Source of the DNA: Candidatus Uhrbacteria bacterium
GTDB lineage: Bacteria > Patescibacteriota > Patescibacteriia > JACQRZ01
Length of the DNA stretch: 64,000 bases
Assembly: GCA_016206155.1 (NCBI GenBank)
Contig: JACQSC010000002.1
Coordinates: 143,473-207,472 of the forward strand
Direction: 5' to 3'
Positions 3,601 to 56,900 of this stretch are shown here, piece by piece (position 1 is the stretch's first letter; every line of letters starts with the position of its first letter). The position numbers and the translations under genes were made by a program. A model generated the notes under the pieces. That model worked only from the letters and a program-made list of their open reading frames with translations, searched no databases and had not been told where the DNA came from.

Positions 3601-5323
3601 TATTTATACTAATAGCTACAATAGACTTTATGTAAGGGGTGATACTGGCAACGTCGGCATCGGGACGACAGTTCCGAACCAAAAATTGGAAGTAAAAGCC
3701 GGCGATGGTACGAACAGTTTGATTTATGGTCTGAAATTGGAAAATGTTGGTGCCCAAGATGACGGTAATGGAGTTGCAACCGGCATACTGTTTGGAGTAA
3801 GTAGTAGCGCTGACTCTAACCGCGGGAAAGGCGGTTTGGTCTATGCTTATCCACCTAGCGGAGGGACATGGAATAGGGGCGACTTTTATTTCTTACAGAA
3901 CACTGATGAAACTTCTGCTGTTGCAGGCTTGTCAGACGCAGTCATGACCATAAAAAACAACGGCAACGTCGGGATTGGGACAGACCCATCAAGTCCTTTC
4001 CATATACTGAACTCATCTGGTGACATGATGAGGATTCAGAATTCTGGAGGGGGTGAAGCCGACATTCGATATCTTACGGGCAGTAGTAGTTGGGAGGTGG
4101 GCACGAACAATGTTGGCAACGGGACAGACAAAAATCAATTTTATATCTATGATGCAAGCGGCGTTCCTAATCCCTATGCATTTACCGTGCAGCGTGGAAC
4201 TGGCAACGTCGGCATTGGGATGACCCCCCTAACAGAAAAATTGGAGGTCGCAGGTTCGATCAAAGCAAACGATCACATTGAATCGCGCTGGACTAGTGTT
4301 GTAGATACCGCCTATAACGCAAACCCACGTACCTATTATACAAGCAGAAATATGACAATGCGGACGGGCCTTAATGAGCAATACGAACTTGGTGAAATTG
4401 CTGTAACGTCACAACATCCTCTTGCATTTTATGCCAATGGTTATGAGCATATGCGCATCACCGTGGATGGCAAAGTCGGGATTGGGACGGCAGATCCGAA
4501 AGAAGGTCTTGATGTTTATGGTAAACGCACTGTCCTTCGAGGAGGATTATATGTCGGCGGAAATGACAATTTTAATTGGATTTCTGGATTTTTTAGTAAG
4601 CCGCTTGCATTCTTTGTCCGCGATAATAGTGGAGCATTTTCAGAAAAAATGAGAATTTTGCAGAACGGTTACGTCGGGATTGGAACGGATGAACCAAAAA
4701 CAAAACTTGATGTTCAGGGTGGGGATATCAACGTTGGGTATCTCGGAGAAAAAAAGAAATTCGCTGATTTGTCAAAACATGAAAAATTGGCGTTTGAAAC
4801 CGATCGTGTCGGGCTCGATGTTGCAGAGCTTTTTGAATCAGAAGAAACCGTTGAGGTCGGAGATTTGTTAGTGGTATCAGCGACAAACGAACGTAAACTC
4901 AAAAAATCATCCCATTCCTACCAAGACACGATTGTCGGCGTTGTGTCCGGTTCGCCCGCGCTTCTTTTTGAGGGCAGTGAGTTAAAGCTTGGGGCAAAAC
5001 CGAATAGATTTGAAAAAGGCGAAAAGCCCCCTGTTGCGCTTGCCGGCCGCATTCCGGTAAAAGTGTCTCTTGAAAACGGTACGATCAAGCCCGGTGATTA
5101 TCTTACCACGTCCAGCAAACCGGGCGTTGCCATGAAGGCAACCGAACCCGGCATGACAATAGGCGTTGCGCTTGAGAGTTATGACGGCGAGGGCGATGGG
5201 AAAATTTTGGTTTTTCTCAATCTTGGTGAAAAGAACACAAGCAGTGTTATCAAAGAGCTTCAAGGGCTTCTCAAATCCCTTGAACGCCGCATCCGGATGA
5301 TGGAATACAAACCCCGATGGTAA
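608..5323 (+). CDS. giant secreted repeat protein, tail-fibre-like (about 1570 aa), with 13 or more G-N-V-G-I-G-T-x-x-P-x-x-K-L-x-V repeats
   Basis: The track ORF 536..5323 is used, with the start moved to M25 (608, MSMLHEPY...). The next 40 aa look like a signal peptide (SAYLLSALFVVLVGTAFLIVPNGAYA). The repeated 'NGNVGIGTTSPxxKLEV' motif is the one I recognise from proteins annotated tail-fibre-domain-containing in phages and bacteria. The C-terminal ~150 aa form a separate beta-rich domain (IVGVVSGSPALL...IKPGDYLTTSSKPGVAMKA...GVALE). A jelly-roll or lectin-like insert sits at about aa 730-900. Confidence 0.8.
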   Translation: MSMLHEPYSSSRGKSAYLLSALFVVLVGTAFLIVPNGAYAISAAPTLPAPVSGAPKALPADHLLDVLNKQTSTRAASDASAFSGTVKIGGATQAAKGILEIGDVGVTHDAFLLSVASGIASTGVGANNRKALVLQGGPTPKISAYDYVARAGMKLTINPDNSDVVIVPGGGRVGIGTIPTASSVGLLQIAKTNDRYSGITFNDSRLRLGSDPNGNGAIFAQGGGAILEVGAQGYISFTTGAIAGHATEKMRINEAGNVGIGTTEPGAALEVKRTVGNGNAEIFANYNGTNIGRLNAASNGNVYMGVSSGTGDLAIGVNDNVTALNILGKVIKREDNVEVGSIGNVGIGIAKPLAKLHIEGQSTWGGLTIKNKNNWYTHFNYPDDKNYIRGTTIIADNDANVKVGIGTSSPGYKLEVNGDIRTGAGGDIRLGPANSGTDAILYSDNGELSFYTNKDRRMVLDTSGRLGIGTPEPENKLEISGNNQAIALTTGGGEKNNLYGGRWRVHDTGNGVYTSFDTKNVNSWTNDRLTILSSNGNVGIGTTAPVVAGGGFTGIDIRGTNGSSVVLGKSGGSPTFLYSDSSYLNFETPGVIAFRPGGSEKMIITSDGKVGIGTTTPESKLHIQNVLEGNPADKSLFSIYDLHNQGRNGQYFRILGGTRGINLISNWTSLSFGARYDAGGEFKQDLTIDTNGKVGIGTTSPRVKLEVAGSVSTGLLAPRNTYLADTYPTFSGWSNTQTSTCGTWEMLGGFEILGGRDYVRKTIPNLPAGDYIVEFDFYKIDSWDGELAIFMWNDDRKWSRKYYSSEGTQICGQQHNNWNEDKAHVAVEVNQTETGNATLHFGATLDSHAGDESWGVNNIVVYKKGSTTTLAAIGDLKVNGNVGIGTSDPWAKLHIEGRDKWGGLAIVNANTHVTHFNYPDGKNYIRGTTIIADDGGNVGIGTTSPHSERKLHVMGTERIETAADAWNWLEIARGDDTIYFGSDVTNRGIWSNGRRGVGIYTNSYNRLYVRGDTGNVGIGTTVPNQKLEVKAGDGTNSLIYGLKLENVGAQDDGNGVATGILFGVSSSADSNRGKGGLVYAYPPSGGTWNRGDFYFLQNTDETSAVAGLSDAVMTIKNNGNVGIGTDPSSPFHILNSSGDMMRIQNSGGGEADIRYLTGSSSWEVGTNNVGNGTDKNQFYIYDASGVPNPYAFTVQRGTGNVGIGMTPLTEKLEVAGSIKANDHIESRWTSVVDTAYNANPRTYYTSRNMTMRTGLNEQYELGEIAVTSQHPLAFYANGYEHMRITVDGKVGIGTADPKEGLDVYGKRTVLRGGLYVGGNDNFNWISGFFSKPLAFFVRDNSGAFSEKMRILQNGYVGIGTDEPKTKLDVQGGDINVGYLGEKKKFADLSKHEKLAFETDRVGLDVAELFESEETVEVGDLLVVSATNERKLKKSSHSYQDTIVGVVSGSPALLFEGSELKLGAKPNRFEKGEKPPVALAGRIPVKVSLENGTIKPGDYLTTSSKPGVAMKATEPGMTIGVALESYDGEGDGKILVFLNLGEKNTSSVIKELQGLLKSLERRIRMMEYKPRW

Positions 5324-16569: not shown

Positions 16570-17751
16570 ATGCGTATTGACCGCTATATTCATGACGTCA
16601 TCCTTGCGGATCTTCATGAGCCAACCATGGTGTTTCTTGCAGGTCCCCGACAAGTCGGCAAGACGACACTCGCGCACATTCTCGGAGAGAAAGACTTCAC
16701 TGCTTATCAGTATTTGAACTGGGATGACAGCGACGACCAGAAGCGTATTCTCGCCCGTGATTTTGAAGCTGATGCGCGCTTACTTGTCTTTGATGAACTG
16801 CATAAATACCGCAACTGGAAAAATTATCTTAAGGGACTATACGATAAACAAAAAACTCGATTCGCCATCATCGCAACAGGCAGTGCGCGTCTTGATATGT
16901 ATCGTCGCGGCGGCGATTCGTTGATGGGGCGTTATCATCATCTTCGGCTTCATCCGTTTTCACTTGCGGAACTTGTTGGGCAGAGGTTTTCCAGCAGTCC
17001 ATTTTCAGAGCTGATGTTTCCCGTTGAAACGAGTACCATTGCCCAAGCGGCGCGCGACCTGCTCCGCTTTGGAGGTTTCCCAAAGCCATTTTTGCAAAAG
17101 AGCGATACTGCGTTGAGACGTTTTCACAACGAGCGCTTTGATCGCTTAATCAAAGAAGATATTCGTGATACCGAACGGGTGCACGACCTTTCGTTACTCC
17201 AAGAGCTCGCTGCGCTTCTTCCGGAACGGGCAAGCTGCCGCCTCTCATTAAACAATCTGCGAGAGGATCTTGGAGTTGCGCATAAGACCGTGAGCCATTG
17301 GATGGATGTGTTTGAGAGATTTTACTATCATTTTCGTATTACGCCATTCGCGATCAAAACAGCCGCCTCGCTTCGCAAGGAACCAAAACTCTATTTATGG
17401 GACTGGTCGGTGGTGGAGGATGCTGGAAATCGTTTTGAGAATATGATCGCGTCACATCTTCTTAAGTTTGTTCATTTTTTATGCGACACGCAAGGATACA
17501 AAGCGATGGTGCACTATATGCGGGATCGTGATGGACGCGAAGTTGATTTTTTGATAACGATTAATCAGAAGCCATGGTTTGCTGTTGAGGTAAAATATTC
17601 AGACACCACTATCTCGCCACATCTTTCCTATTATATGCAACGCGCTCGGATTCCATTCGGATATCAGGTTGTCGCAACGCCAGGGATTCATCGAATAAGA
17701 GATTCAATTCATGTGATAAGCGCCAGTCGTTTTCTTGCGGGGCTTGTGTAA
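16570..17751 (+). CDS. COG1373-type ATPase (AAA domain plus DUF4143-like C-terminal domain)
   Basis: Walker A GPRQVGKTT and Walker B LLVFDELH. Overall architecture of the widespread 'ATPase, AAA_14/DUF4143' family. Has its own promoter and terminator. Confidence 0.8.
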   Translation: MRIDRYIHDVILADLHEPTMVFLAGPRQVGKTTLAHILGEKDFTAYQYLNWDDSDDQKRILARDFEADARLLVFDELHKYRNWKNYLKGLYDKQKTRFAIIATGSARLDMYRRGGDSLMGRYHHLRLHPFSLAELVGQRFSSSPFSELMFPVETSTIAQAARDLLRFGGFPKPFLQKSDTALRRFHNERFDRLIKEDIRDTERVHDLSLLQELAALLPERASCRLSLNNLREDLGVAHKTVSHWMDVFERFYYHFRITPFAIKTAASLRKEPKLYLWDWSVVEDAGNRFENMIASHLLKFVHFLCDTQGYKAMVHYMRDRDGREVDFLITINQKPWFAVEVKYSDTTISPHLSYYMQRARIPFGYQVVATPGIHRIRDSIHVISASRFLAGLV

Positions 17752-17772
17752 GGAGGGAAAACGGTGAAGGAG

Positions 17773-17796
17773 AAACGGTGACTGTCACCGTTTTTA
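17773..17796 (+). terminator. rho-independent terminator (aaacggtgactgtcaccgttttt)
   Basis: Perfect 8-bp stem with loop ctgt followed by a T-run. Lies 22 nt after the ATPase stop. Confidence 0.65.
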
Positions 17797-17986
17797 CACC
17801 GTTTTTACACATTAACGAAGCGGAGAACTAATTCATATCATACACAGAGTTTCTGGGACATAACCGCATATTTTATTTTATCGCGCAAGAGATCTTATGA
17901 AGATCCGTATTTATATTTTCATTCCCATTTTTTTCCTGATTATAGTAAATAGTGTAGAGGCAACAATCTGTATTAACGGTGATTGT
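17797..17986 (+). repeat. 190-bp direct repeat, copy 2
   Basis: See 9649..9838. Here it spans the terminator-proximal spacer, the RBS and the first 30 codons of the PA14 gene. Confidence 0.9.
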
Positions 17987-22188: not shown

Positions 22189-22494
22189 AACCATATACTT
22201 TCCAGCCGCTCTTGTTGCGTTGAAGTAACGTTTTCTGCCCGCCATTTTATAATGAGGCAAAAAAGGTTGACACAATTTTAAACTAAGGTCGAATATTGTA
22301 GTAATACATTCTGATCGCTTAATCAAAGAAGATATTAGTGATACCGAACGGGTGCACGACCTTTCGTTACTCCAAGAGCTCGCTGCGCTTCTTCCGGAAC
22401 GGGCAAGCTGCCGCCTCTCATTAAACAATCTGCGAGAGGATCTTGGAGTTGCGCATAAGTGTAAGGAGGGAAAACGGTGACTGTCACCGTTTTT
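22189..22494 (+). pseudogene. decayed copy of the ATPase gene: promoter/5'UTR + 137-bp internal fragment + stop/terminator
   Basis: Compared directly. 22189..22310 matches 16434..16560, 22312..22459 matches 17149..17289, and 22460..22494 matches 17747..17795 (with one internal repeat unit missing). Confidence 0.85.
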
Positions 22495-22588
22495 TTCCTG
22501 TCACCGTTTTTTTGCCGTTTTTTTGTGAACTAGCGTTGAAAATTCCGATGTGGTATAGTAATAATTGAATCAGGTTGATGCAATTATT

Positions 22589-25398: not shown

Positions 25399-25432
25399 CG
25401 TAATCCGTAATCCGTAACTTGTAACTTGTTCT

Positions 25433-25993
25433 ATGGGAAGATTGCGAGGCGTTATAAGACAAGGATTGTTACATATGGTCACATTGCTTGGAGGTCCTTG
25501 TACTAGTTACAGATTACGAGTTACGAGTTACGGTCTCGGGTTTACGCTCATCGAACTCCTCATTGCAATGGCATTGATGATTGTGCTTATCGGCGCGGCG
25601 GCGCCACTCTACAGCAACCTCCAGACAAGCAGCCAGCTCAATGAAAGCGCTGTTACTGTTGCAAGTACGCTTCGACTTGCGCGCACCCGGAGTGTTGCGC
25701 GGCAGAATAATAGCAGCTATGGAGTATATATTGAGGCGAATGCTGGCGGCGCTGATCGTCTCATTCTCTTTGCCGGTATATCCTATGCCGCGAGGAATCC
25801 CGCCTATGACCGGATCACAACATTTGACAGCGCGCTTTCTGTGACGCCCATGCTTTCGGGCGGTGTGACGGAAATCGTATTTTCACGAGCAACAGGCGTC
25901 CCGTCGGCGACAGGAACGATCGGCATTTCGCATGCCACAACGGGAAGCCGTTCTGTTTCAATAAATGCGCTTGGCGCAGTTGATTATGATTGA
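25433..25993 (+). CDS. prepilin-type N-terminal cleavage/methylation domain protein (pseudopilin-like, 186 aa)
   Basis: G|FTLIELLIAMALMIVL class III signal motif. The leader is unusually long; an alternative ATG lies at 25475. The leader-coding region contains 7-mer tandem repeats and one arm of an inverted repeat. Confidence 0.7.
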   Translation: MGRLRGVIRQGLLHMVTLLGGPCTSYRLRVTSYGLGFTLIELLIAMALMIVLIGAAAPLYSNLQTSSQLNESAVTVASTLRLARTRSVARQNNSSYGVYIEANAGGADRLILFAGISYAARNPAYDRITTFDSALSVTPMLSGGVTEIVFSRATGVPSATGTIGISHATTGSRSVSINALGAVDYD

Positions 25994-27746
25994 ACAGCAG
26001 AGGGGACAGACCATTCTAGAAATTGTCATCGCGCTTGCGATTTTTATTTTTATATCAAGCGCGCTTGCTTCACTGATACTCGGCGGGTTGCATGGCGTCG
26101 CGCAGGGGTCACAGCATCTTGAGGCAGACGCGCTTGCGCAGGAGGGAATGGAAGCGCTCCGGTCGATTAAAAACGGCGCGTGGAATGAGTTGTCTCAATC
26201 ACCGGCGGGGGTGCGCGTATCCGGAGGTGAGTGGATTCTCTCCGGAGCAAGCGACAGCATGCCGCCATTTACCCGTACGATTACCCTTGACGCGGTATGC
26301 CGATCACAGGCCGGCGACATTGTTTCGTGTCCCGGTTCATATACAGATCCGCATACGCTGTACGGCGCAAGCGCGGTTACATGGACAACGCTTGAAGGAA
26401 CCCGGAATCAGGTGACTCGCAGCTCCTATCTCACTTCTTGGAATGAGTCGGCGTGGACGCAAACTGATTGGAGCGGTGGTACGGGACAGAGCATATGGTC
26501 GGTAGAGAATCGCTATGATGCGGACGATGGAAATATCGATTCGGCGGTTGCAGGGCAGGTTCAACTCGCGGCATCCGCAATAACTGGAACATGGTCTCTG
26601 CACTCGCAGATACCGGAGGGGGATGATCTTCACGATCTCTGGACCGTGGGCGGAAGCGATATATGGGCTGTCGGAGACGATGGGCTCATCATTCATTGGG
26701 ATGGAACAACGTGGACAACTGTTACATCTCCGCATGGCAGTCGGATCAATGGCATTTTTATGCTCTCTGCCAGTAGTGGGTGGGCTGTTGGCGATGGAGG
26801 AAAGATTATACGGTACGACGGTACATCCTGGACACAGGTAAGCTCGCCCGTTACCGATCACCTTAACAGTATATGGATGGTATCTGAAAGCGATGGCTGG
26901 GCAGTTGGTGAAGCGGGCAAGATTCTCCGCTTTGACGGTACTTCCTGGACGCAATTTACCGATACCGGAGGAAATACCTGGCATGATATTCAAATGATCT
27001 CGGCAGCCGATGGATGGGTTGTTGGAAACCAGGGCCTTATCTACCGCTGGAACGGATCTGCGTGGTCATTGCATACCGATAGCGGCGGTACGGTATGGCG
27101 ATCGCTCTATCTTCTGAGCGCAACGGATGGTTGGGTTGCAGGCGATCAAGGACTTATCTACCGCTGGAATGGTTCTGAGTGGTTGCTTTCAGCCGATACC
27201 GGCGGAACGAACTGGCGCTCTGTGTATCATGCATCATCATCAGACGGCTGGGTGACAGGAACAGGCGGTGAAATCTACCACTGGAATGGCGTTATGTGGA
27301 GCGCATACTCGTCGCCCACAACGGCAGATATTAATGAGGTGCGCATGCTCTCGTCAAGCCTCGGGTGGGCTGTTGCTGATGGCGGGCGACTCTTTCGCTA
27401 CCAAGCAAGCGCCTTTGAGACAAGCGGTGTCGTGACGTCATCCGCCTTCTCGCTTGGCGATGCCTCGCCGGTTACTGTTATCGAGTGGGATGAGGTGGTT
27501 CCCGCATGTACACCGGCGTGTGATGTCCGCCTTCAGATACGCACCGCTCCTGATAGTGGAGGTACACCCGGAGTCTTTGGTCCATGGTACGGAGCGACGG
27601 GTATCGATACGTTTTTTTTAACGCCTACCGGATCGTTGATTCCACAAGAAGCAAACGGCGGATCGTGGGTGCAGTATCGTGCCGTGCTTGACGGCGACGG
27701 CACAGCGACCCCGACGCTAAACGAGGCGCGCGTGTATTATAAATAA
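25986..27746 (+). CDS. prepilin-like protein fused to a multi-bladed beta-propeller domain (about 586 aa)
   Basis: N-terminus MIEQQRGQTILEIVIALAIFIF is a pilin-like hydrophobic helix. It is followed by 8 or more about 40-aa repeats of 'S..DGWAVGd.G.I..wdGt.W' (Ycf48/BNR-like propeller blades). Confidence 0.7.
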   Translation: MIEQQRGQTILEIVIALAIFIFISSALASLILGGLHGVAQGSQHLEADALAQEGMEALRSIKNGAWNELSQSPAGVRVSGGEWILSGASDSMPPFTRTITLDAVCRSQAGDIVSCPGSYTDPHTLYGASAVTWTTLEGTRNQVTRSSYLTSWNESAWTQTDWSGGTGQSIWSVENRYDADDGNIDSAVAGQVQLAASAITGTWSLHSQIPEGDDLHDLWTVGGSDIWAVGDDGLIIHWDGTTWTTVTSPHGSRINGIFMLSASSGWAVGDGGKIIRYDGTSWTQVSSPVTDHLNSIWMVSESDGWAVGEAGKILRFDGTSWTQFTDTGGNTWHDIQMISAADGWVVGNQGLIYRWNGSAWSLHTDSGGTVWRSLYLLSATDGWVAGDQGLIYRWNGSEWLLSADTGGTNWRSVYHASSSDGWVTGTGGEIYHWNGVMWSAYSSPTTADINEVRMLSSSLGWAVADGGRLFRYQASAFETSGVVTSSAFSLGDASPVTVIEWDEVVPACTPACDVRLQIRTAPDSGGTPGVFGPWYGATGIDTFFLTPTGSLIPQEANGGSWVQYRAVLDGDGTATPTLNEARVYYK

Positions 27747-27756
27747 TTTCAAATTT

Positions 27757-28320
27757 ATGATTTTAAATTTCAAATTGAAGAAAAATTTGCAATTTGAAAT
27801 TTGCAATTTGAAATTATGTATTGGGTTTACGTTGGTTGAAATTGTTATTTCTGTCGGAATTATGCTCATCATCGTTGGCAGTCTCGGCGGTTTTGTCGTA
27901 TCTCTGCAGTCGGCGCGACAACATATGGCAAGCGCGCAGGAAGTTGACGGTAATTTTCGCATAGCGCTCGATCTTCTTGGTTCGCGTATCCGCGGCGCGC
28001 GCGGGGTTAATGCCGGCGCATCGATATTTGATACGGATCCGGGGGTATTGTCGCTTGAGATGGCTAATCCCGCGCTCAATCCGACGGTATTTCGTCTTGA
28101 TCAGGATAATGGTATTCTGCAAATGCAAGAGGGAGCGGGAAGCCCCGTGTCAGTGACATCAAACGAAGTACGCGTGTCAGATCTCGTCTTTTCACTGCGC
28201 TCTCCTGCGGGAGAGCCCGAGAATGTTGGTATTGCGCTGACGATTGATTATTATTCGCAAACTGATTCCTATGCCGGCTTTTCCCATTCGCTCACAACCG
28301 CGGTTACCGCTCGAGAGTAG
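27757..28320 (+). CDS. prepilin-type protein (187 aa)
   Basis: G|FTLVEIVISVGIMLII follows a 23-aa leader whose coding sequence contains a perfect 14-nt tandem duplication. Confidence 0.7.
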   Translation: MILNFKLKKNLQFEICNLKLCIGFTLVEIVISVGIMLIIVGSLGGFVVSLQSARQHMASAQEVDGNFRIALDLLGSRIRGARGVNAGASIFDTDPGVLSLEMANPALNPTVFRLDQDNGILQMQEGAGSPVSVTSNEVRVSDLVFSLRSPAGEPENVGIALTIDYYSQTDSYAGFSHSLTTAVTARE

Positions 28321-30848: not shown

Positions 30849-31715
30849 ATGAAACCCATTATTTTTTACCACGGGCAGTGCCTTGACGGGTTTGCCGGGG
30901 CATGGGCAGCATGGAAAAAATTCGGAAATGCCGCTGAGTATCGGGGGGTTTCTCATGATCTCAACCGCATTCCCACCGGCATCACCGGACGGACAGTTTA
31001 TTTTATCGATTATTGTCTATCGGAGGCGCTGATGCGACGAGCGCTTGCGCGGACGCGACGCTGTATTGTTATTGATCATCACGCAACTCATAGGACCATT
31101 GCGGGCATGGCGGACGAGTCAGTATTTTCGCTGTCGAAATCGGGCTGTGTGCTTGCGTGGAATTATTTTCATCCTAAAAAAAACCCCCCGCAATTGTTGC
31201 TTGCGATCCAGGACTATGATCTTTTTACCCTCAAGCGTAAACATACACTGGAAATCGCGACTGCGCTGACACTTGCGGAGCGAGAATTCGATGCATGGTC
31301 GAACCTTGTTCGCGACTTTGCAGATCCGCTGCTGAGGAAAACATTCGTGTTGCTCGGTTCGCTTCTCATGCGGTATAAGGATGAATGTATTGATCGCATT
31401 CTTGAGAGTGCGCAGCGCGTCGTCTTTCATGGGCATCGCGCCTATGCGGTAAATACGTCCGCGTTCTATTCGGAAGTCGGTACGCGAATGTATCAAACTC
31501 GTCCTGTGCACCTTGGCATTGTTTGGTATTACAGGAATGGGCGCATGAAGGTCTCTCTTCGCTCTGATGGGCGAATTGATTGTGGGGCGCTTGCCATCAG
31601 GTACGGTGGCGGCGGACATGTTGGCGCGGCGGCATTTTGGCTGCCGTTTAAGGGCGAGTTCCCATGGAGGACAATAGGAAATGGTGTCCCCATTTCCCTG
31701 CAAAGTAAATCATAA
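30849..31715 (+). CDS. DHH-family phosphoesterase (NrnA-like)
   Basis: N-terminal HGQCLDGFAGAWAAW and the IDHH motif. Confidence 0.65.
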   Translation: MKPIIFYHGQCLDGFAGAWAAWKKFGNAAEYRGVSHDLNRIPTGITGRTVYFIDYCLSEALMRRALARTRRCIVIDHHATHRTIAGMADESVFSLSKSGCVLAWNYFHPKKNPPQLLLAIQDYDLFTLKRKHTLEIATALTLAEREFDAWSNLVRDFADPLLRKTFVLLGSLLMRYKDECIDRILESAQRVVFHGHRAYAVNTSAFYSEVGTRMYQTRPVHLGIVWYYRNGRMKVSLRSDGRIDCGALAIRYGGGGHVGAAAFWLPFKGEFPWRTIGNGVPISLQSKS

Positions 31716-36565: not shown

Positions 36566-36952
36566 GTGATACATCCCGGGCATCTCGCGTATCTCAAGGC
36601 AGCAAAGCGATTGGGAGATGAACTGGTTGTTGTTGTGACACGCGATGAAACCGCCAAACGCCGAAAGGGCCGCAGGACAGCGTGTCACGAGAAAGATCGG
36701 ATGGCGCTTGTCAGAGGATTCCGCATTGTTGATAAAGTAGTGCTTGGGGATCGCGATGACTCATGGCGCATCATCATGAAGCTGCGTCCCAGGACAATAT
36801 GCTTTGGATACGATCAGCAAGCAGCGATCGATTCGCTAAAGCGAACGTTGCCCGCGATATTTCATAAAAACGTTTGCATTGTCATGGCAAAGCCGTTTCA
36901 CCCAAAAACATATCATTCCAGCTTTTTCAAACTCCTAACCCCTAAATCCTAA
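36566..36952 (+). CDS. cytidylyltransferase-like nucleotidyltransferase (HxGH family). True start is probably upstream, around 36503-36540.
   Basis: The in-frame upstream codons encode VVCCFGTFDVIHPGH, the canonical nucleotide-binding start of this family. No ATG, GTG or TTG lies between the stop at 36500 and GTG 36566. Confidence 0.55.
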   Translation: MIHPGHLAYLKAAKRLGDELVVVVTRDETAKRRKGRRTACHEKDRMALVRGFRIVDKVVLGDRDDSWRIIMKLRPRTICFGYDQQAAIDSLKRTLPAIFHKNVCIVMAKPFHPKTYHSSFFKLLTPKS

Positions 36953-37040
36953 ACTCTAAACTCTAACGCACAATTCAATGTATAAGCCGGTTTATACATT
37001 GAGTTTTACAAACCCTAACCCCTAACCCCTAACCCCTATT
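36931..37040. repeat. CCCTAA-type short tandem repeats flanking a 9-bp-stem hairpin
   Basis: ctcctaacccctaaatcctaaactctaaactctaac ... caatgtataAGCCGGTTtatacattg ... aaaccctaacccctaacccctaacccctatt. Confidence 0.8.
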
Positions 37041-50017: not shown

Positions 50018-51361
50018 ATGGCTGGCTATTTTAAAATCACCACCTTTGGATGCCAAATGAACAAGTCGGATTCCGAGCGATTGAGTTCAATTTTGACACG
50101 AAGCGGTCTTGTATGCACGGATGATGATGAACGGGCAGATGTGTTGATCTATAACACCTGCGCCGTGCGCCAAAAAGCAGAGGATCGCGTATACGGTATT
50201 CATCGCACGTTACAGACACTAAAAGAAAATAATCCCAATCTCATCGTCGCAATCACCGGCTGTATGGCGGGACGCGACCACGATGGTAAGATTAGACAGC
50301 GTCTATCGGCAGTTGATCTGTTTTTTCCAACCGAGGAGATGATCCATCTTCCGCGAGCTTTGAGCGGTCTGAATCCATCACTGATTGATCCGTCCGGGGT
50401 GGGAGATGAGTATGATCATTATCTGAAAATTGCACCATCGTATTTGAATACATTTCAGGCGTATCTTGCGATTAGCAATGGGTGCAATAAATTTTGTACA
50501 TACTGTGTGGTGCCGTATGCCCGCGGTCGTCAAAAAGATCGGCCGCTTGTTGATGTGCTTGCAGAGGCGCGCAATCTTGCCAGTTCTGGTGTCTTTGAGA
50601 TAACGCTTCTCGGGCAGTGCGTTAATTTGTATAATCCGCCCGACAAGGAACATTTTTCAAAAGATAATTCCTTTGATAATTCAAAAAATGGCTTCGCGGC
50701 GCTCATGTGGGAGATAAATCAGATTGCAGGAATAGAGAGGATTCATTTTACCGCTCCGCACCCGCAGTATATGGATGAGCAGACCGTCGCGGCCCTTACC
50801 ATGCCAAAAAATATCAATTATCTTCATCTGCCCGTGCAGGCAGGAAGTAATGTGGTATTGAAGCGCATGAATCGTCATTATACGCGAGAGTATTACATTG
50901 ATAAAATTCAAGAGATCAGAGCGTCAAAGCCTGGCATCGCAATCGGCACCGATATTATTGTCGGTTTCTGTGGTGAAACTGAGGGAGATTTTGAACAGAC
51001 AATGGATTTGTATCGGGAGTGCGATTTTGACATCGCATACACCGCGCAATATTCAGTTCGTTCCGGTACCGCCGGTGCGCGAATGTATAAAGACGATGTT
51101 CCACGTCAGGAGAAGAAGCGGCGATGGAATGTGTTGCAGAAGTTGATGGAGGAAACTGCGCTTCGCAAGAATCAAGCATATGTCGGCCGTACAGTATCGG
51201 TTTTGGTTGAGTCGTGCGAAAAAGATCTCTGCAGTGGCAACTCACGTGAGATGAAACGCGTGCTCTTTCGAGGCGATGAATCGCTTGTCGGTACAATACA
51301 AAACGTCACCATTGACCGCGCTGTTGAATGGATATTATATGGAAGCAGAATCAAGAATTAA
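50018..51361 (+). CDS. miaB: tRNA methylthiotransferase (MiaB/RimO radical-SAM family)
   Basis: MTTase N-terminal domain (GCQMN), radical SAM CNKFCTYCVVP, and a TRAM domain. Confidence 0.85.
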   Translation: MAGYFKITTFGCQMNKSDSERLSSILTRSGLVCTDDDERADVLIYNTCAVRQKAEDRVYGIHRTLQTLKENNPNLIVAITGCMAGRDHDGKIRQRLSAVDLFFPTEEMIHLPRALSGLNPSLIDPSGVGDEYDHYLKIAPSYLNTFQAYLAISNGCNKFCTYCVVPYARGRQKDRPLVDVLAEARNLASSGVFEITLLGQCVNLYNPPDKEHFSKDNSFDNSKNGFAALMWEINQIAGIERIHFTAPHPQYMDEQTVAALTMPKNINYLHLPVQAGSNVVLKRMNRHYTREYYIDKIQEIRASKPGIAIGTDIIVGFCGETEGDFEQTMDLYRECDFDIAYTAQYSVRSGTAGARMYKDDVPRQEKKRRWNVLQKLMEETALRKNQAYVGRTVSVLVESCEKDLCSGNSREMKRVLFRGDESLVGTIQNVTIDRAVEWILYGSRIKN

Positions 51362-52361
51362 GAATCAAGAATTAAGAATTGAGACACCTGTGATAGCGAT
51401 CATTGGGCCGACGTCATCGGGGAAGTCGGATCTCGCTATTAAACTTGCAAAAAAGTTTAACGGCGTGATTATTTCTGCTGACTCACGCCAGATATACAGG
51501 GGGCTCGATATATGTACTGGAAAAATCACAAAGAAGGAGCAGAAAATGGTTAAACACCATTGCCTTGATATTGTCGCGCCGCCAAAGCGGTGGAGGGGCG
51601 GTGTACAGCCCTTTACGCTTGCAGATTATAGAACATGCGCTGATCGCGCGATTCAGGACATTCGCAGCAGGGGGCATGTGCCATTTATTGTCGGCGGCAC
51701 CCATCTGTATGTTCGGGCGGTTCTCTACGATTATGATATTCCGAGTGTACCACCCAACCATGAATACAGAATGAGGCTGGAGAAAAAGTCACTTGCCGCG
51801 CTCCAGCGACAATTATACAAAATTGATCCTGCGATGCGGGTATGGAAAGATCGCGATAATAAACGGCGTGTTTTGCGTGCGCTGGAAATTTATCGTGCAA
51901 CAAAGAGGAAGCCGTCGTTGGTGTATTCAAACCCTACGCTTCGTCCACGATACAACGCGCTTCAACTTTGCGTTGACGTTCCGCGAGAGACGCTTTATAA
52001 ACGAATTGACAAGCGGGTTGATGATCGGATAAAAGGGGGGATGATTCGTGAGGTGGAGCGACTGCGAGAAAGGGGTGTGTCCAAACAATGGCTCAGGAGC
52101 TTAGGTCTTGAGTGTCGATTTATTTCAAACTATCTTGATGGAAAAAAAACAAAAAAACGGAAGGATGATATGATCGAGCGGCTCAAATTTGCCATTCATC
52201 ACTATGCGCGTCGCCAACTCACCTGGTATCGAAAGCAAAATGACATTACATACGTAACGTCATATTCGTCTGCTCAAAACAATATTAAGCTGTTTCTCAC
52301 ATCAATAGGGACTGGATCCCCCAGGCCTAAAGGCCGGGCAAGCTACCCTTCGGCGGGATGA
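51339..52361 (+). CDS. miaA: tRNA dimethylallyltransferase
   Basis: P-loop IAIIGPTSSGKSDLAIKLA...ISADSRQIYRGLDICTGKI. Overlaps miaB by 23 nt. The overlap contains a 14-nt tandem repeat. Confidence 0.85.
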   Translation: MEAESRIKNQELRIETPVIAIIGPTSSGKSDLAIKLAKKFNGVIISADSRQIYRGLDICTGKITKKEQKMVKHHCLDIVAPPKRWRGGVQPFTLADYRTCADRAIQDIRSRGHVPFIVGGTHLYVRAVLYDYDIPSVPPNHEYRMRLEKKSLAALQRQLYKIDPAMRVWKDRDNKRRVLRALEIYRATKRKPSLVYSNPTLRPRYNALQLCVDVPRETLYKRIDKRVDDRIKGGMIREVERLRERGVSKQWLRSLGLECRFISNYLDGKKTKKRKDDMIERLKFAIHHYARRQLTWYRKQNDITYVTSYSSAQNNIKLFLTSIGTGSPRPKGRASYPSAG

Positions 52362-56328: not shown

Positions 56329-56425
56329 AGTAGTGTGGTTTTTGCGAGAAATGCTCTCTCCCACATAATTTATGACTTACGATTTGTGATTTATACGTTA
56401 TTTGATAATCTGAAATTTGCAATCA

Positions 56426-56851
56426 TCAATCTGAAATCTCAACTCCCATTTGGCGGGCCGTGCCCGCAATGGTCCTCATCGCCGCCTCAATGCTGTTTGC
56501 TGAAAGGTCGGCGGCCTTTTTTTCTGCAATTTCTACAAGTTGCGCCTTTGTCAGCTTGCCGATTTTCTCCGTGAGCGCCTTACCCGAACCCTTTGGGATG
56601 CCCGCCGCCTTCTTGATCAGCGCTGAAGCGGGGGGCGTCTTGAGAATAAAGTCATAGGTTCTGTCCTCATAGACAGTAATGACAACCGGTGTAATATCAT
56701 CGCCCAATTTCTGTGTAGCCGCGTTAAACTTTTGACAAAATTCAGCAATGTTGAGTCCATGCTGTCCCAGCGCAGGTCCGACCGGCGGTGCGGGATTTGC
56801 TTTTCCTGCAGGAATCTGGAGTTTTATGAGTGCTTTTACTTTTTTTGCCAT
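56426..56851 (-). CDS. rplK: 50S ribosomal protein L11
   Basis: [35 protein letters not shown] matches L11. Confidence 0.92.
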
Positions 56852-56857
56852 ACGAAT

Positions 56858-56900
56858 AGGTTAGAAGGTTAGAAGGTTAGAAGGTTAGAAGGTGATCCTT
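56858..56900. repeat. 4 x tandem 8-mer (aggttaga) followed by a gaagg/ccttc hairpin, in the nusG-rplK spacer
   Basis: Read directly. Lies immediately 5' of the rplK start codon on the coding strand. Confidence 0.8.

What the first reader, a model, noticed from the sequence alone, without database searches (positions are those of the whole stretch)
27746..27814. Perfect 14-nt tandem duplication inside the leader of a second minor pilin
ttgcaatttgaaat occurs twice back to back (27787..27814). It encodes part of the leader LQFEICNLKL before G|FTLVEIV. Upstream lie two aatttcaaatt copies (27746-56 and 27766-76), which are the reverse complement of the aatttgaaatt core. Fourteen is not a multiple of three, so slippage of one unit switches the gene off.
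Basis: seen in the sequence. Interest (0 to 1): 0.55.

Follow-up and report, generated by a model that had tools for sequence, protein, structure and literature searches.

The report
Heptamer-repeat hairpin inside a prepilin leader
The 14-base repeat is real, but it is one arm of a 75-base hairpin made of 7-base repeats, it recurs at gene junctions in related uncultured bacteria, and it looks stable rather than like a fast on/off switch.

Summary
AAATTTGCAATTTG occurs 2.4 times with no mismatch at 27783-27815, which is far more than chance gives.

It is not an isolated fresh duplication. It is the 3' arm of a 75-nt AT-rich hairpin (27743-27817). Both arms are arrays of about 4.6 heptamers. The hairpin runs from the stop codon of the upstream pilin-like gene to five codons before the G|FTLVE cleavage site of a minor prepilin, in a type IV pilus operon of a Candidatus Uhrbacteria (CPR) genome.

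Homologous hairpins, with compensatory arm changes and the same 14-nt alternation, sit at the 5' ends of other pilin-like genes in related genomes. One more lies between rplK and rplA in this window.

Ortholog comparison supports translation from ATG 27757. The ATG is conserved, indels are multiples of three, and 5 of 6 family members are in frame. The repeat therefore probably does encode leader residues.

The phase-switch idea is weak. Four assemblies are identical, and related arrays show no indels between contigs that are 99% identical. Array length is conserved across lineages. An in-frame TTG (27808, the NCBI start) survives any copy number of one or more.

The closest known kind is the cyanobacterial STRR 7-bp repeat hairpin found between cistrons, whose function is still unknown. 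I call this a new variant of a known kind, of moderate interest.

The parts
25965..27746 (+). Upstream 593-aa pilin-like gene. Its stop codon TAA (27744-27746) lies in the outer stem of the hairpin.
   Evidence: ORF list; weak N_methyl match; fold.
27743..27817 (+). Whole hairpin element: 30 base pairs in three helices. A 3x3 internal loop holds A and U of the AUG opposite UGC 27802-04.
   Evidence: RNA MFE -22.8 kcal/mol, z -4.33. DNA fold -17.2, z -3.57. Covariance model R1 scores 68 bits, E 3e-13.
27745..27776 (+). 5' arm: heptamer array ATTTCAA-type x4.6, including two AATTTCAAATT copies.
   Evidence: TRF; the repeat finder.
27757..27759 (+). ATG, the conserved start codon, which gives a 23-aa leader.
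   Evidence: Invariant in the alignment with L034, L035 and L036; 10 nt after the upstream stop codon.
27777..27783 (+). Apical loop GAAGAAA.
   Evidence: Fold.
27783..27815 (+). 3' arm: AAATTTG/CAATTTG heptamers x4.7, equal to a 14-nt unit x2.4. This is the reported tandem duplication.
   Evidence: TRF 100% matches; local shuffle 30/20000.
27802..27804 (+). In-frame TGC codon. If the heptamer began with A, as a perfect complement of the 5' arm would, this codon would be the stop TGA. It sits unpaired in the internal loop.
   Evidence: Sequence; fold; reading-frame model.
27808..27810 (+). In-frame TTG, the start chosen in the NCBI annotation (170-aa product, MKLCIG|F). It is preserved at any repeat number of one or more.
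   Evidence: P0001 / MBI4252823.1; copy-number model.
27823..27840 (+). Prepilin cleavage motif G|FTLVE (G-1, F+1, E+5).
   Evidence: Translation; alignment of 26 homologs.
27757..28320 (+). Minor prepilin gene (187 aa from the ATG).
   Evidence: ORF. The exact protein is found on three Logan contigs.
56366..56445 (-). Second member of the same hairpin family. It lies between the rplK stop codons and the rplA GTG start; both genes are on the minus strand.
   Evidence: R1 37.3 bits, E 9e-6; Pfam L11 and L1; translation.
25399..25546 (+). Analogous hairpin of 4+4 different heptamers, running from the pilC stop codon to the G|F site of the first minor pilin.
   Evidence: the repeat finder I2; MFE -56.1, z -4.69.

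Best explanation
The repeat is the 3' arm of an STRR-like heptamer-array hairpin. The element consists of about 4.6 ATTTCAA-type heptamers, a 7-nt loop and about 4.7 AAATTTG/CAATTTG heptamers. It occupies the junction between two co-transcribed pilin genes of a Candidatus Uhrbacteria type IV pilus operon.

Shown by the data:
- The element belongs to a family with the same architecture and related sequence. Members sit at the 5' ends of pilin-like genes in other CPR genomes and at the rplK-rplA junction of this window.
- Its arms co-vary between lineages.
- Its array lengths are conserved.
- Its reading frame is kept open.

Inferred from the comparisons:
- Translation starts at the conserved ATG 27757, 10 nt after the upstream stop codon.
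- Translation reads through the element, so the repeat encodes part of a 23-aa leader.
- Prepilin peptidase removes this leader at G|F, which is why such an insertion is tolerated here.

Inferred mechanism (about 40% likely given the identity above). The genome has almost no Shine-Dalgarno sites. The hairpin encloses both the upstream stop codon and the AUG. A ribosome terminating on the upstream gene melts the stem and exposes the AUG. Translation of the pilin is thereby coupled to, and limited by, translation of its upstream partner. The double-stranded stem may also affect mRNA stability or processing.

The arrays most likely arose and are kept uniform by slippage and intra-hairpin templated copying, starting from the ancestral leader sequence ATG ATT TCA AAT TTC AGA TTG. 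The element is not a fast phase-variation switch.
For: - Anatomy.
- Orthologs: the ATG is invariant. L035, L034 and the window differ by indels of 18 and 21 nt. L036 (79% aa identity) has only MSGKNKKGG|M.
- Family: covariance model R1 finds L041 pilin2 and the next gene in L041, L079 pilin1, the big pilin-like gene of L010, the next gene in L007, and window 56366-56445.
- Structure: RNAalifold predicts 21 pairs, 4 of them with compensatory G-C to A-U changes.
- The 14-nt period of the 3' arm is also present in L041 (94%) and L079 (94%).
- Frame: 5 of 6 family members have an in-frame ATG at the 5' end or in the loop. L079 has no start other than the 5' ATG. In both L041 copies every in-frame start lies 5' of the 3' arm, so the 3' arm must be translated.
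- The 3' arms of the translated copies avoid in-frame TGA. In the window this depends on TGC 27802-04.
- Almost no gene in the window has a Shine-Dalgarno site.
- Stability: four assemblies are identical. L007/L045 and L012/L054 are 99.2-99.9% identical and show no gaps across arrays of 4.6 to 11 heptamers.
- Generality: about half of the expanded junctions in orthologous loci fold with z of -2.3 or below. Period 7 is the commonest non-triplet tandem period in 61 CPR loci plus the window, and is absent from shuffles.
- Literature: cyanobacterial STRR 7-bp repeats form hairpins between hupS and hupL and have been proposed to confer transcript stability or translational coupling (PMC2670836).
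Against: - No expression, read-level or proteomic data were available. The start codon and the coupling mechanism are inferred.
- The closest ortholog lacks the element altogether, and L034 and L035 keep only the 5' arm. It is therefore dispensable.
- NCBI annotates the start at TTG 27808, downstream of most of the repeat.
- The compensatory changes could come from templated homogenisation of repeats rather than from selection for pairing.
- One family member (L010) has its ATGs out of frame.
- Only two family copies were seen in 64 kb.
Confidence: 0.45

Rival explanations
1. Neutral or selfish palindromic DNA. The heptamer arrays are a by-product of slippage and template switching at an unconstrained AT-rich junction. 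They persist only because the prepilin leader is cleaved off, and they have no regulatory role. This resembles the in-frame Rickettsia palindromic elements.
For: - Distribution is sporadic. The element is absent from the 79%-identical ortholog and decayed in L034 and L035.
- Different junctions carry unrelated heptamers: pilin1, serS, miaA and nusG-rplK.
- The arrays appear to grow from native coding sequence. The L11 C-terminus ...EISD* is GAG ATT TCA GAT TGA.
- Similar arrays occur in unrelated viral contigs.
Against: - Arm lengths are conserved at about 4 to 4.7 units.
- Sequence similarity is retained between hosts whose pilins are only 41% identical.
- The elements recur at the same kind of position in several operons.
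- There are no indels between near-identical genomes.
Confidence: 0.25
2. The element is an untranslated intercistronic hairpin. The real start is TTG 27808, as NCBI annotates, giving the ordinary 6-aa leader MKLCIG|F. The open frame from ATG 27757 would then be incidental.
For: - The PGAP call (P0001, 170 aa).
- Most orthologs have leaders of 3-9 aa.
- In the rplK-rplA copy the downstream GTG start sits at the 3' foot of the hairpin, so that element is non-coding there.
Against: - The ATG is invariant in four orthologs, and the indels are multiples of three.
- The L041 copies and L079 have no start codon in or after the 3' arm, and 5 of 6 members are in frame.
- The in-frame TGC at 27802-04 avoids a stop codon.
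- In a genome without Shine-Dalgarno sites, a TTG 62 nt beyond the upstream stop codon and buried in a stem is a poor re-initiation site.
Confidence: 0.2
3. One reading: a contingency locus. Slipped-strand gain or loss of a 14-nt (or 7-nt) unit takes the ATG out of frame and switches the minor pilin off and on within the population.
For: - The unit is not a multiple of three, and only n=2 keeps the ATG frame open.
- Heptamer arrays recur in the 5' coding ends of surface-filament genes.
- One family member (L010) has its ATGs out of frame, as expected of an OFF allele.
Against: - The sequence is identical in the window and three independent assemblies.
- No variant protein appears in the 90% cluster.
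- There are no indels across related arrays in contig pairs that are 99.2-99.9% identical.
- Array length is conserved among lineages.
- There are only 2.4 units.
- The in-frame TTG 27808 is retained in every copy-number state of one or more.
Confidence: 0.1

Closest known systems
[quoted passage not shown]
   Same: - The tandem units are 7 bp.
- Arrays can pair as a hairpin.
- They are located between co-transcribed genes.
- Function is unknown, with transcript stability or translational coupling proposed (PMC2670836).
- They can expand inside structured or functional sequence (RNase P RNA; Vioque 1997, as cited in PMC2858038).
   Different: - The host is a CPR bacterium (Ca. Uhrbacteria), not a heterocystous cyanobacterium.
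- The heptamers are AT-rich (ATTTCAR), not CCCCAGT, TTGGTCA or CAACAGT (my recollection of Mazel et al. 1990).
- Only 2 family copies were seen in 64 kb.
- The element lies inside an open reading frame and appears to be translated.
Simple-sequence-repeat contingency loci with repeats in signal-peptide coding regions (Neisseria opa CTCTT repeats, pilC poly-G)
   Same: A repeat whose unit is not a multiple of three lies in the 5' coding (leader) part of a surface-structure gene, and a one-unit change shifts the frame from the first ATG.
   Different: - Those tracts are long and differ between almost any two isolates (established knowledge).
- Here there are 2.4 units and no variation in four assemblies.
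- Array length is conserved across lineages.
- A downstream in-frame start exists.
Streptococcus gallolyticus pil1 leader-peptide GCAGA repeats with a terminator stem-loop (PMC3894217)
   Same: A short tandem repeat is combined with a hairpin just upstream of pilus subunit coding sequence, and translation through the repeat is proposed to melt the hairpin.
   Different: - That system has a separate leader ORF and an intrinsic terminator, and it controls sortase pili.
- Here the repeat lies in the pilin's own signal leader.
- The stem is AU-rich with no U-tract, and no variation was seen.
Rickettsia palindromic elements (RPE; Ogata et al. 2000, recalled from memory)
   Same: A palindromic element sits in frame inside a protein-coding gene and is translated with it.
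   Different: RPEs are 100-150 bp multi-copy families without heptamer periodicity. No evidence of mobility was found here: no transposase, and no convincing target-site duplication.
Borg tandem repeats (PMC9879509)
   Same: Perfect, locally generated tandem direct repeats occur at intergenic sites and gene starts in uncultivated genomes, arising independently at each site.
   Different: - Borg genic repeats have units divisible by three and create disordered regions.
- Here the period is 7.
- The arrays are paired as inverted arms.
- They are conserved rather than rapidly evolving.

Membership tests
SSR contingency locus (phase variation by slipped-strand mispairing) | A tandem repeat whose unit is not a multiple of 3 lies inside the ORF or promoter. 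| tested here: met
   The unit is 14 (or 7) nt at 27783-27815, inside the ORF from ATG 27757.
SSR contingency locus (phase variation by slipped-strand mispairing) | Gain or loss of one unit abolishes expression. | tested here: inconclusive
   The ATG frame is open only at n=2. TTG 27808 stays in frame with G|F at any n of one or more.
SSR contingency locus (phase variation by slipped-strand mispairing) | Repeat number is polymorphic among cells or strains. | tested here: not met
   The window and L001-L003 are identical. The 90% cluster holds no length variant. There are no gaps across related arrays in pairs that are 99.2-99.9% identical. This test is at consensus level only; no reads were available.
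SSR contingency locus (phase variation by slipped-strand mispairing) | A long tract of many identical units. | tested here: not met
   There are 2.4 perfect 14-mers, or 4.7 heptamers at 84% matches.
STRR-type heptanucleotide repeat hairpins | Tandem repeats with a 7-bp unit. | tested here: met
   TRF finds period 7 in both arms. Period 7 is the commonest non-triplet period in the window and in 61 CPR loci.
STRR-type heptanucleotide repeat hairpins | The arrays can form a hairpin located between co-transcribed genes. | tested here: met
   The 38-nt arms are 82% complementary. MFE is -22.8 with z -4.3. The element lies between the 593-aa gene and the pilin gene of one operon.
STRR-type heptanucleotide repeat hairpins | The same heptamer is dispersed in many copies in the genome. 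| tested here: inconclusive
   Two family copies were found in 64 kb (27744-27822 and 56366-56445). The rest of the genome was not available.
STRR-type heptanucleotide repeat hairpins | Non-coding location, in heterocystous cyanobacteria. | tested here: not met
   The element lies in an open frame that appears to be translated. The host is Ca. Uhrbacteria.
Type IV prepilin (class III signal peptide) | G-1, F+1 and E+5, followed by a hydrophobic helix. | tested here: met
   ...CIG|FTLVEIVISVGIMLIIVG. G, T, L and E are conserved in 26 homologs.
Type IV prepilin (class III signal peptide) | Match to Pfam N_methyl (PF07963) above the gathering score. | tested here: inconclusive
   The score is 17.5 bits against a cut-off of 21.2. 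Several homologs carry a precomputed PF07963 hit.
Type IV prepilin (class III signal peptide) | Encoded with the pilus assembly genes. | tested here: met
   T2SSE 427 bits and T2SSF 184 bits. PilM_2 88 bits.
Type IV prepilin (class III signal peptide) | The leader is removed by prepilin peptidase. | not testable with these tools
   This needs biochemistry or proteomics.
Leader-peptide plus terminator attenuation (S. gallolyticus pil1 type) | A separate leader ORF followed by an intrinsic terminator. | tested here: not met
   The repeat is in the pilin's own leader. No terminator-like site was found in 27740-27830.
In-frame palindromic elements (RPE-like) | A palindromic insert kept in frame and translated within a host gene. 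| tested here: met
   Five of 6 family members are in frame with an ATG at the 5' end or in the loop. In L079 and both L041 copies the 3' arm must be translated.
In-frame palindromic elements (RPE-like) | A dispersed multi-copy family with signs of mobility. | tested here: inconclusive
   There are two copies in the window and related copies in four other genomes. No transposase was seen. The flanking direct repeats TGTATT (27732-37 / 27817-22) and CTCCCA (second copy) are short and unverified.

The most novel reading that the evidence does not exclude
CPR bacteria, and some phages and other uncultivated lineages, carry a class of STRR-like heptamer-array hairpins. In operons that lack Shine-Dalgarno sites these hairpins would act as cistron-junction devices. 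The stem holds the upstream stop codon and the downstream start codon together, so the downstream gene is translated only by ribosomes that have just finished the upstream gene. In prepilin genes the device can sit in frame because the leader is cleaved off. If so, the long-unexplained heptamer repeats of cyanobacteria would gain a testable function.
Probability: 0.2. Interest if true: 0.65.

Novelty: new variant of a known kind. Interest (0 to 1): 0.4.

Why it matters
Heptanucleotide tandem repeats (STRR) have been known in cyanobacteria since 1990 without an established function. Three observations here give concrete, comparative material for testing what such hairpins do, whether translational coupling, mRNA processing or nothing.
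- The same architecture occurs in CPR bacteria.
- The arms co-vary.
- The elements are kept in frame inside cleavable prepilin leaders and sit at a ribosomal-protein junction.

The finding also bears on annotation. Start codons and leader lengths of CPR pilins are called inconsistently across these elements: 170 aa in the NCBI record against 187 aa in the Logan gene calls. CPR type IV pili are thought to mediate host attachment and DNA uptake, so how their minor pilins are dosed is of biological interest.

As a candidate phase-variation switch, the finding is weak.

Tried and rejected
- **Intrinsic terminator.** The consensus scan found none at 27740-27830. The stem is AU-only and has no U-tract.
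- **Sigma-70 promoter in the repeat.** The only weak hit starts at 27836, downstream of the element.
- **Known RNA family.** Rfam gave no hit at gathering score in the whole window, and only noise (E about 3-5) in 27650-27900.
- **Invertible DNA switch.** The arms are separated by only 7 nt, so there is no invertible segment.
- **-1 programmed frameshift.** The first AAATTTG is phased as A AAU UUG in the ATG frame. Z=G is a poor slippery site (my recollection, not tested here), the other units are in other phases, and no frameshift product is needed. I rejected this as coincidence.
- **Multi-copy mobile element in the window.** The exact 11-mer occurs elsewhere only at 31715. The covariance model found one further copy, at 56366-56445. 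No transposase or convincing target duplication was seen.
- **Is ATTTCAG a special heptamer?** (ATTTCAG)x3 occurs in 16 IMG/VR stretches. Two composition-matched control heptamers gave 5 and 45 stretches. The heptamer itself is therefore not unusual, though heptamer arrays in general are common.
- **Copy-number variants in public assemblies.** None were found. The one shorter cluster member (P0028) is an adapter-chimeric contig end.
- **Covariation as proof of selection.** Compensatory pairs exist, but concerted evolution of repeats could produce them, so I treat this as suggestive only.
Full report
**Observation.** The sequence at 27739-27826 is a 21% GC island in a region of about 55% GC. 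TRF reports AAATTTGCAATTTG x2.4 at 27783-27815 with 100% matches. The same tract reads as a 7-nt unit x4.7 at 84% matches. A second 7-nt array (AATTTCA x4.6, 72%) lies at 27745-27776. The two arrays are inverted copies of each other: arms 27739-27776 and 27784-27821 are 38 nt long, 82% complementary and 7 nt apart. The 11-mer AATTTSAAATT occurs at 27745, 27766, 27791 and 27805. A perfect tandem duplication with a 10-20 nt unit arose in only 30 of 20,000 dinucleotide shuffles of this AT-rich segment. As RNA the region folds into one hairpin (27743-27817, -22.8 kcal/mol, z -4.3).

**Context.** The window comes from a Candidatus Uhrbacteria (CPR) genome. The NCBI protein for this gene is MBI4252823.1, locus HY623_01425. 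The operon runs as follows:
- PilB (T2SSE)
- PilC (T2SSF)
- minor pilin 1
- a 593-aa pilin-like gene
- this minor pilin (27757-28320, ...CIG|FTLVE)
- a small pilin-like gene
- PilM
- the major pilin

The hairpin fills the space from the stop codon of the 593-aa gene (27744-46, in the outer stem) to five codons before the G-1 codon (27823-25).

**Where translation starts.** NCBI starts the gene at TTG 27808 (170 aa, MKLCIG|F). The Logan gene calls start at ATG 27757 (187 aa). Several lines favour the ATG.
- Alignment with three orthologous loci shows the ATG is invariant and sits 7-10 nt after the upstream stop codon.
- In L036 (79% aa identity, leader MSGKNKKGG) the ATG is the only possible start.
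- L035, L034 and the window differ by indels of 18 and 21 nt, both multiples of three.
- The genome has almost no Shine-Dalgarno sites. Internal cistrons probably rely on re-initiation close to the preceding stop codon.
- Among related hairpins elsewhere (next paragraph), L079 has no start other than its 5' ATG. In both L041 copies every in-frame start lies 5' of the 3' arm. Five of 6 members are in frame with an ATG at their 5' end or in the loop.
- The in-frame codon TGC 27802-04 would be TGA if the heptamer were the perfect complement of the 5' arm. It sits unpaired in an internal loop opposite the AUG.

I conclude, by inference, that the repeat is translated as part of a 23-aa leader. The TTG start remains a live alternative at about 20%.

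**It is a family, not a fresh duplication.**
- L041 is a JGI contig whose pilin is only 41% identical. It carries (ATTTCAG)x4.4, a loop and (CAATCTG/AAATCTA)x3.7 at the same gene. A second copy sits at the start of the next gene.
- L079, a related operon, has (GATTTCA)x3.7 ... (AAATCGA/AAATCTA)x4.6 in the leader of pilin 1, and a different heptamer (TCCATGT x5.1) in pilin 2.
- The 14-nt alternation of the 3' arm is present in L041 and L079 at 94% identity, so it is an inherited feature.
- MAFFT aligns these elements with the window. RNAalifold gives 21 pairs, of which 4 have compensatory changes. The seventh base of the heptamer is A in both arms of the window and G/C in the others.
- A covariance model built from four copies also finds L010 (5' end of the big pilin-like gene), L007 (next gene), and a second copy in the window at 56366-56445. 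That copy lies between the rplK stop codons and the rplA GTG start.
- The closest ortholog (L036) lacks the element, and L034 and L035 retain only the 5' arm. The element is old but dispensable.

**A wider pattern.**
- Pilin 1 of the window has an analogous 148-nt hairpin of 4+4 unrelated heptamers (25399-25546, -56 kcal/mol, z -4.7). Its close orthologs have leaders of 3-5 aa.
- Other heptamer or octamer arrays lie at the serS, miaA and nusG-rplK junctions.
- Nine of the ten short-period arrays I mapped fall in or at the edge of the roughly 8% of the window that is non-coding.
- In the window plus 61 CPR loci, period 7 is the commonest non-triplet tandem period: 26 arrays, against none in shuffles.
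- About half of the expanded stop-to-G|F junctions in orthologous loci fold with z of -2.3 or below.
- Heptamer-array hairpins also occur in unrelated IMG/VR contigs. In one of them they appear at all seven intergenic sites I inspected.
- This matches the published description of cyanobacterial STRR sequences. These are 7-bp repeats able to form hairpins between co-transcribed genes such as hupS-hupL. Their function is unknown, and transcript stability or translational coupling has been proposed (PMC2670836).

**The phase-variation idea.**
- In its favour: the unit is not a multiple of three. In silico, only two copies keep the ATG frame open; one, three, four or five copies give a stop after 22 codons. 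One family member (L010) has its ATGs out of frame.
- Against it: the window and three independent Logan assemblies are identical through the repeat, and the 90% protein cluster holds no length variant.
- Against it: contig pairs that are 99.2-99.9% identical from different assemblies show no gap across related arrays of 4.6 to 11 heptamers.
- Against it: array lengths are conserved at about 4 to 4.7 units across lineages, and the tract has only 2.4 units.
- Against it: TTG 27808 remains in frame with G|F at any copy number of one or more.
- I rate a fast switch at about 10%. Only read-level data can settle it.

**Most likely mechanism (inferred).** The stem encloses both the upstream stop codon and the AUG. 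In a genome without Shine-Dalgarno sites, a ribosome terminating at 27744-46 would open the outer stem and expose the AUG 10 nt downstream. It would then read through the 3' arm. Pilin translation would thus be tied to translation of the upstream pilin-like partner. The second 14-mer copy adds 7.8 kcal/mol, taking the fold from -15.0 to -22.8, by pairing with the outermost 5' heptamers. The roughly 30-bp stem is also a plausible RNase III substrate. A purely neutral or selfish origin, with slippage and templated inverted copying seeded by the ancestral ATG ATT TCA AAT TTC AGA TTG, remains a strong rival at about 25%.

**Verdict.** The repeat is real and is probably coding. It is best described as an STRR-like heptamer-array hairpin residing in frame in a cleavable prepilin leader. 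It is a new variant of a known but functionally unexplained kind of element, and not a demonstrated contingency switch. Interest is moderate (0.4).

Noticed in passing
window 25399-25546: The first minor pilin has its own 148-nt hairpin of 4+4 heptamers (CGTAATC/TGTAACT ... AGTTACG). It runs from the pilC stop codon to G|FTLIE (MFE -56 kcal/mol, z -4.7). The NCBI start at ATG 25475 gives a 22-aa leader, while the closest orthologs have MKSG|F.
   Followed up: partly
window 56366-56445: A second copy of the ATTTCAR-type hairpin family lies between rplK and rplA on the minus strand. The L11 C-terminus ...EISD** is encoded by the first heptamers, and the L1 GTG start sits at the 3' foot of the stem.
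   Followed up: partly
window 56858-56893: A perfect AGGTTAGA x4.5 array lies in the nusG-rplK intergenic region, directly upstream of the rplK ATG.
   Followed up: no
window 36929-36966 and 37013-37038: Telomere-like heptamer arrays (AAACTCT-type x5.3 and CCCTAAC x3.7), in direct orientation, flank a hairpin just upstream of serS.
   Followed up: no
window 51347-51384: AGAATCA/AGAATTA x5.4 (a perfect 14-mer x2.4) lies at the 5' end of miaA, upstream of the conserved P-loop start.
   Followed up: no
window 17746-17821 and 22459-22525: Two sites share GTGTAAGGAGGGAAAACGGTGACTGTCACCGTTTTT, a terminator-like palindrome. Its 3' half is tandemly duplicated (11-17 nt units). It contains a perfect AAGGAGG in an otherwise Shine-Dalgarno-poor genome. 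The second site is just upstream of pilB.
   Followed up: no
window, gene starts (e.g. 42199, 60951, 22565): Almost no gene has a Shine-Dalgarno motif. Several have a TATAAT-like box 2-6 nt before the start codon, which suggests leaderless mRNAs.
   Followed up: partly
L004 3370-4001; L017 1464-2166; L014: In three Magasanikbacteria loci a PD-(D/E)XK (PDDEXK_3, GxxExxY) ORF sits at the same junction. It is flanked by direct and inverted arrays of CCGAAT-containing units, and there is no stop codon before the pilin G|FTLIE. L004 has no start codon within 52 codons of the cleavage site.
   Followed up: partly
L117 (IMGVR_UViG_3300038416_000315): A 59% GC viral contig. All seven intergenic sites I inspected are heptamer-array hairpins, (CAGTGGT)n ... 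(TTACTGA)n, resembling cyanobacterial STRR units.
   Followed up: partly
L019 ~4966-5000 vs L057: Contigs that are 99.9% identical differ by a 30-nt in-frame tandem duplication in the N-terminus of pilM (GLDIADHTIS duplicated).
   Followed up: no
L010 181-258 (also L050): This family member sits at the big pilin-like gene (G|QSLLEVIV) and has a 14-nt tandem duplication that contains the ATG. Both ATGs are out of frame with the gene, which could be an OFF allele or a non-canonical start.
   Followed up: partly
L037 1-19: The Logan contig SRR12113401_2862940 begins with a Nextera adapter fused exactly at GGG 27823. This is an assembly artefact, not a variant.
   Followed up: yes
window 27732-27737 and 27817-27822: TGTATT occurs as a direct repeat on both sides of the hairpin. 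CTCCCA likewise flanks the rplK-rplA copy. These could be target-site duplications or chance.
   Followed up: no
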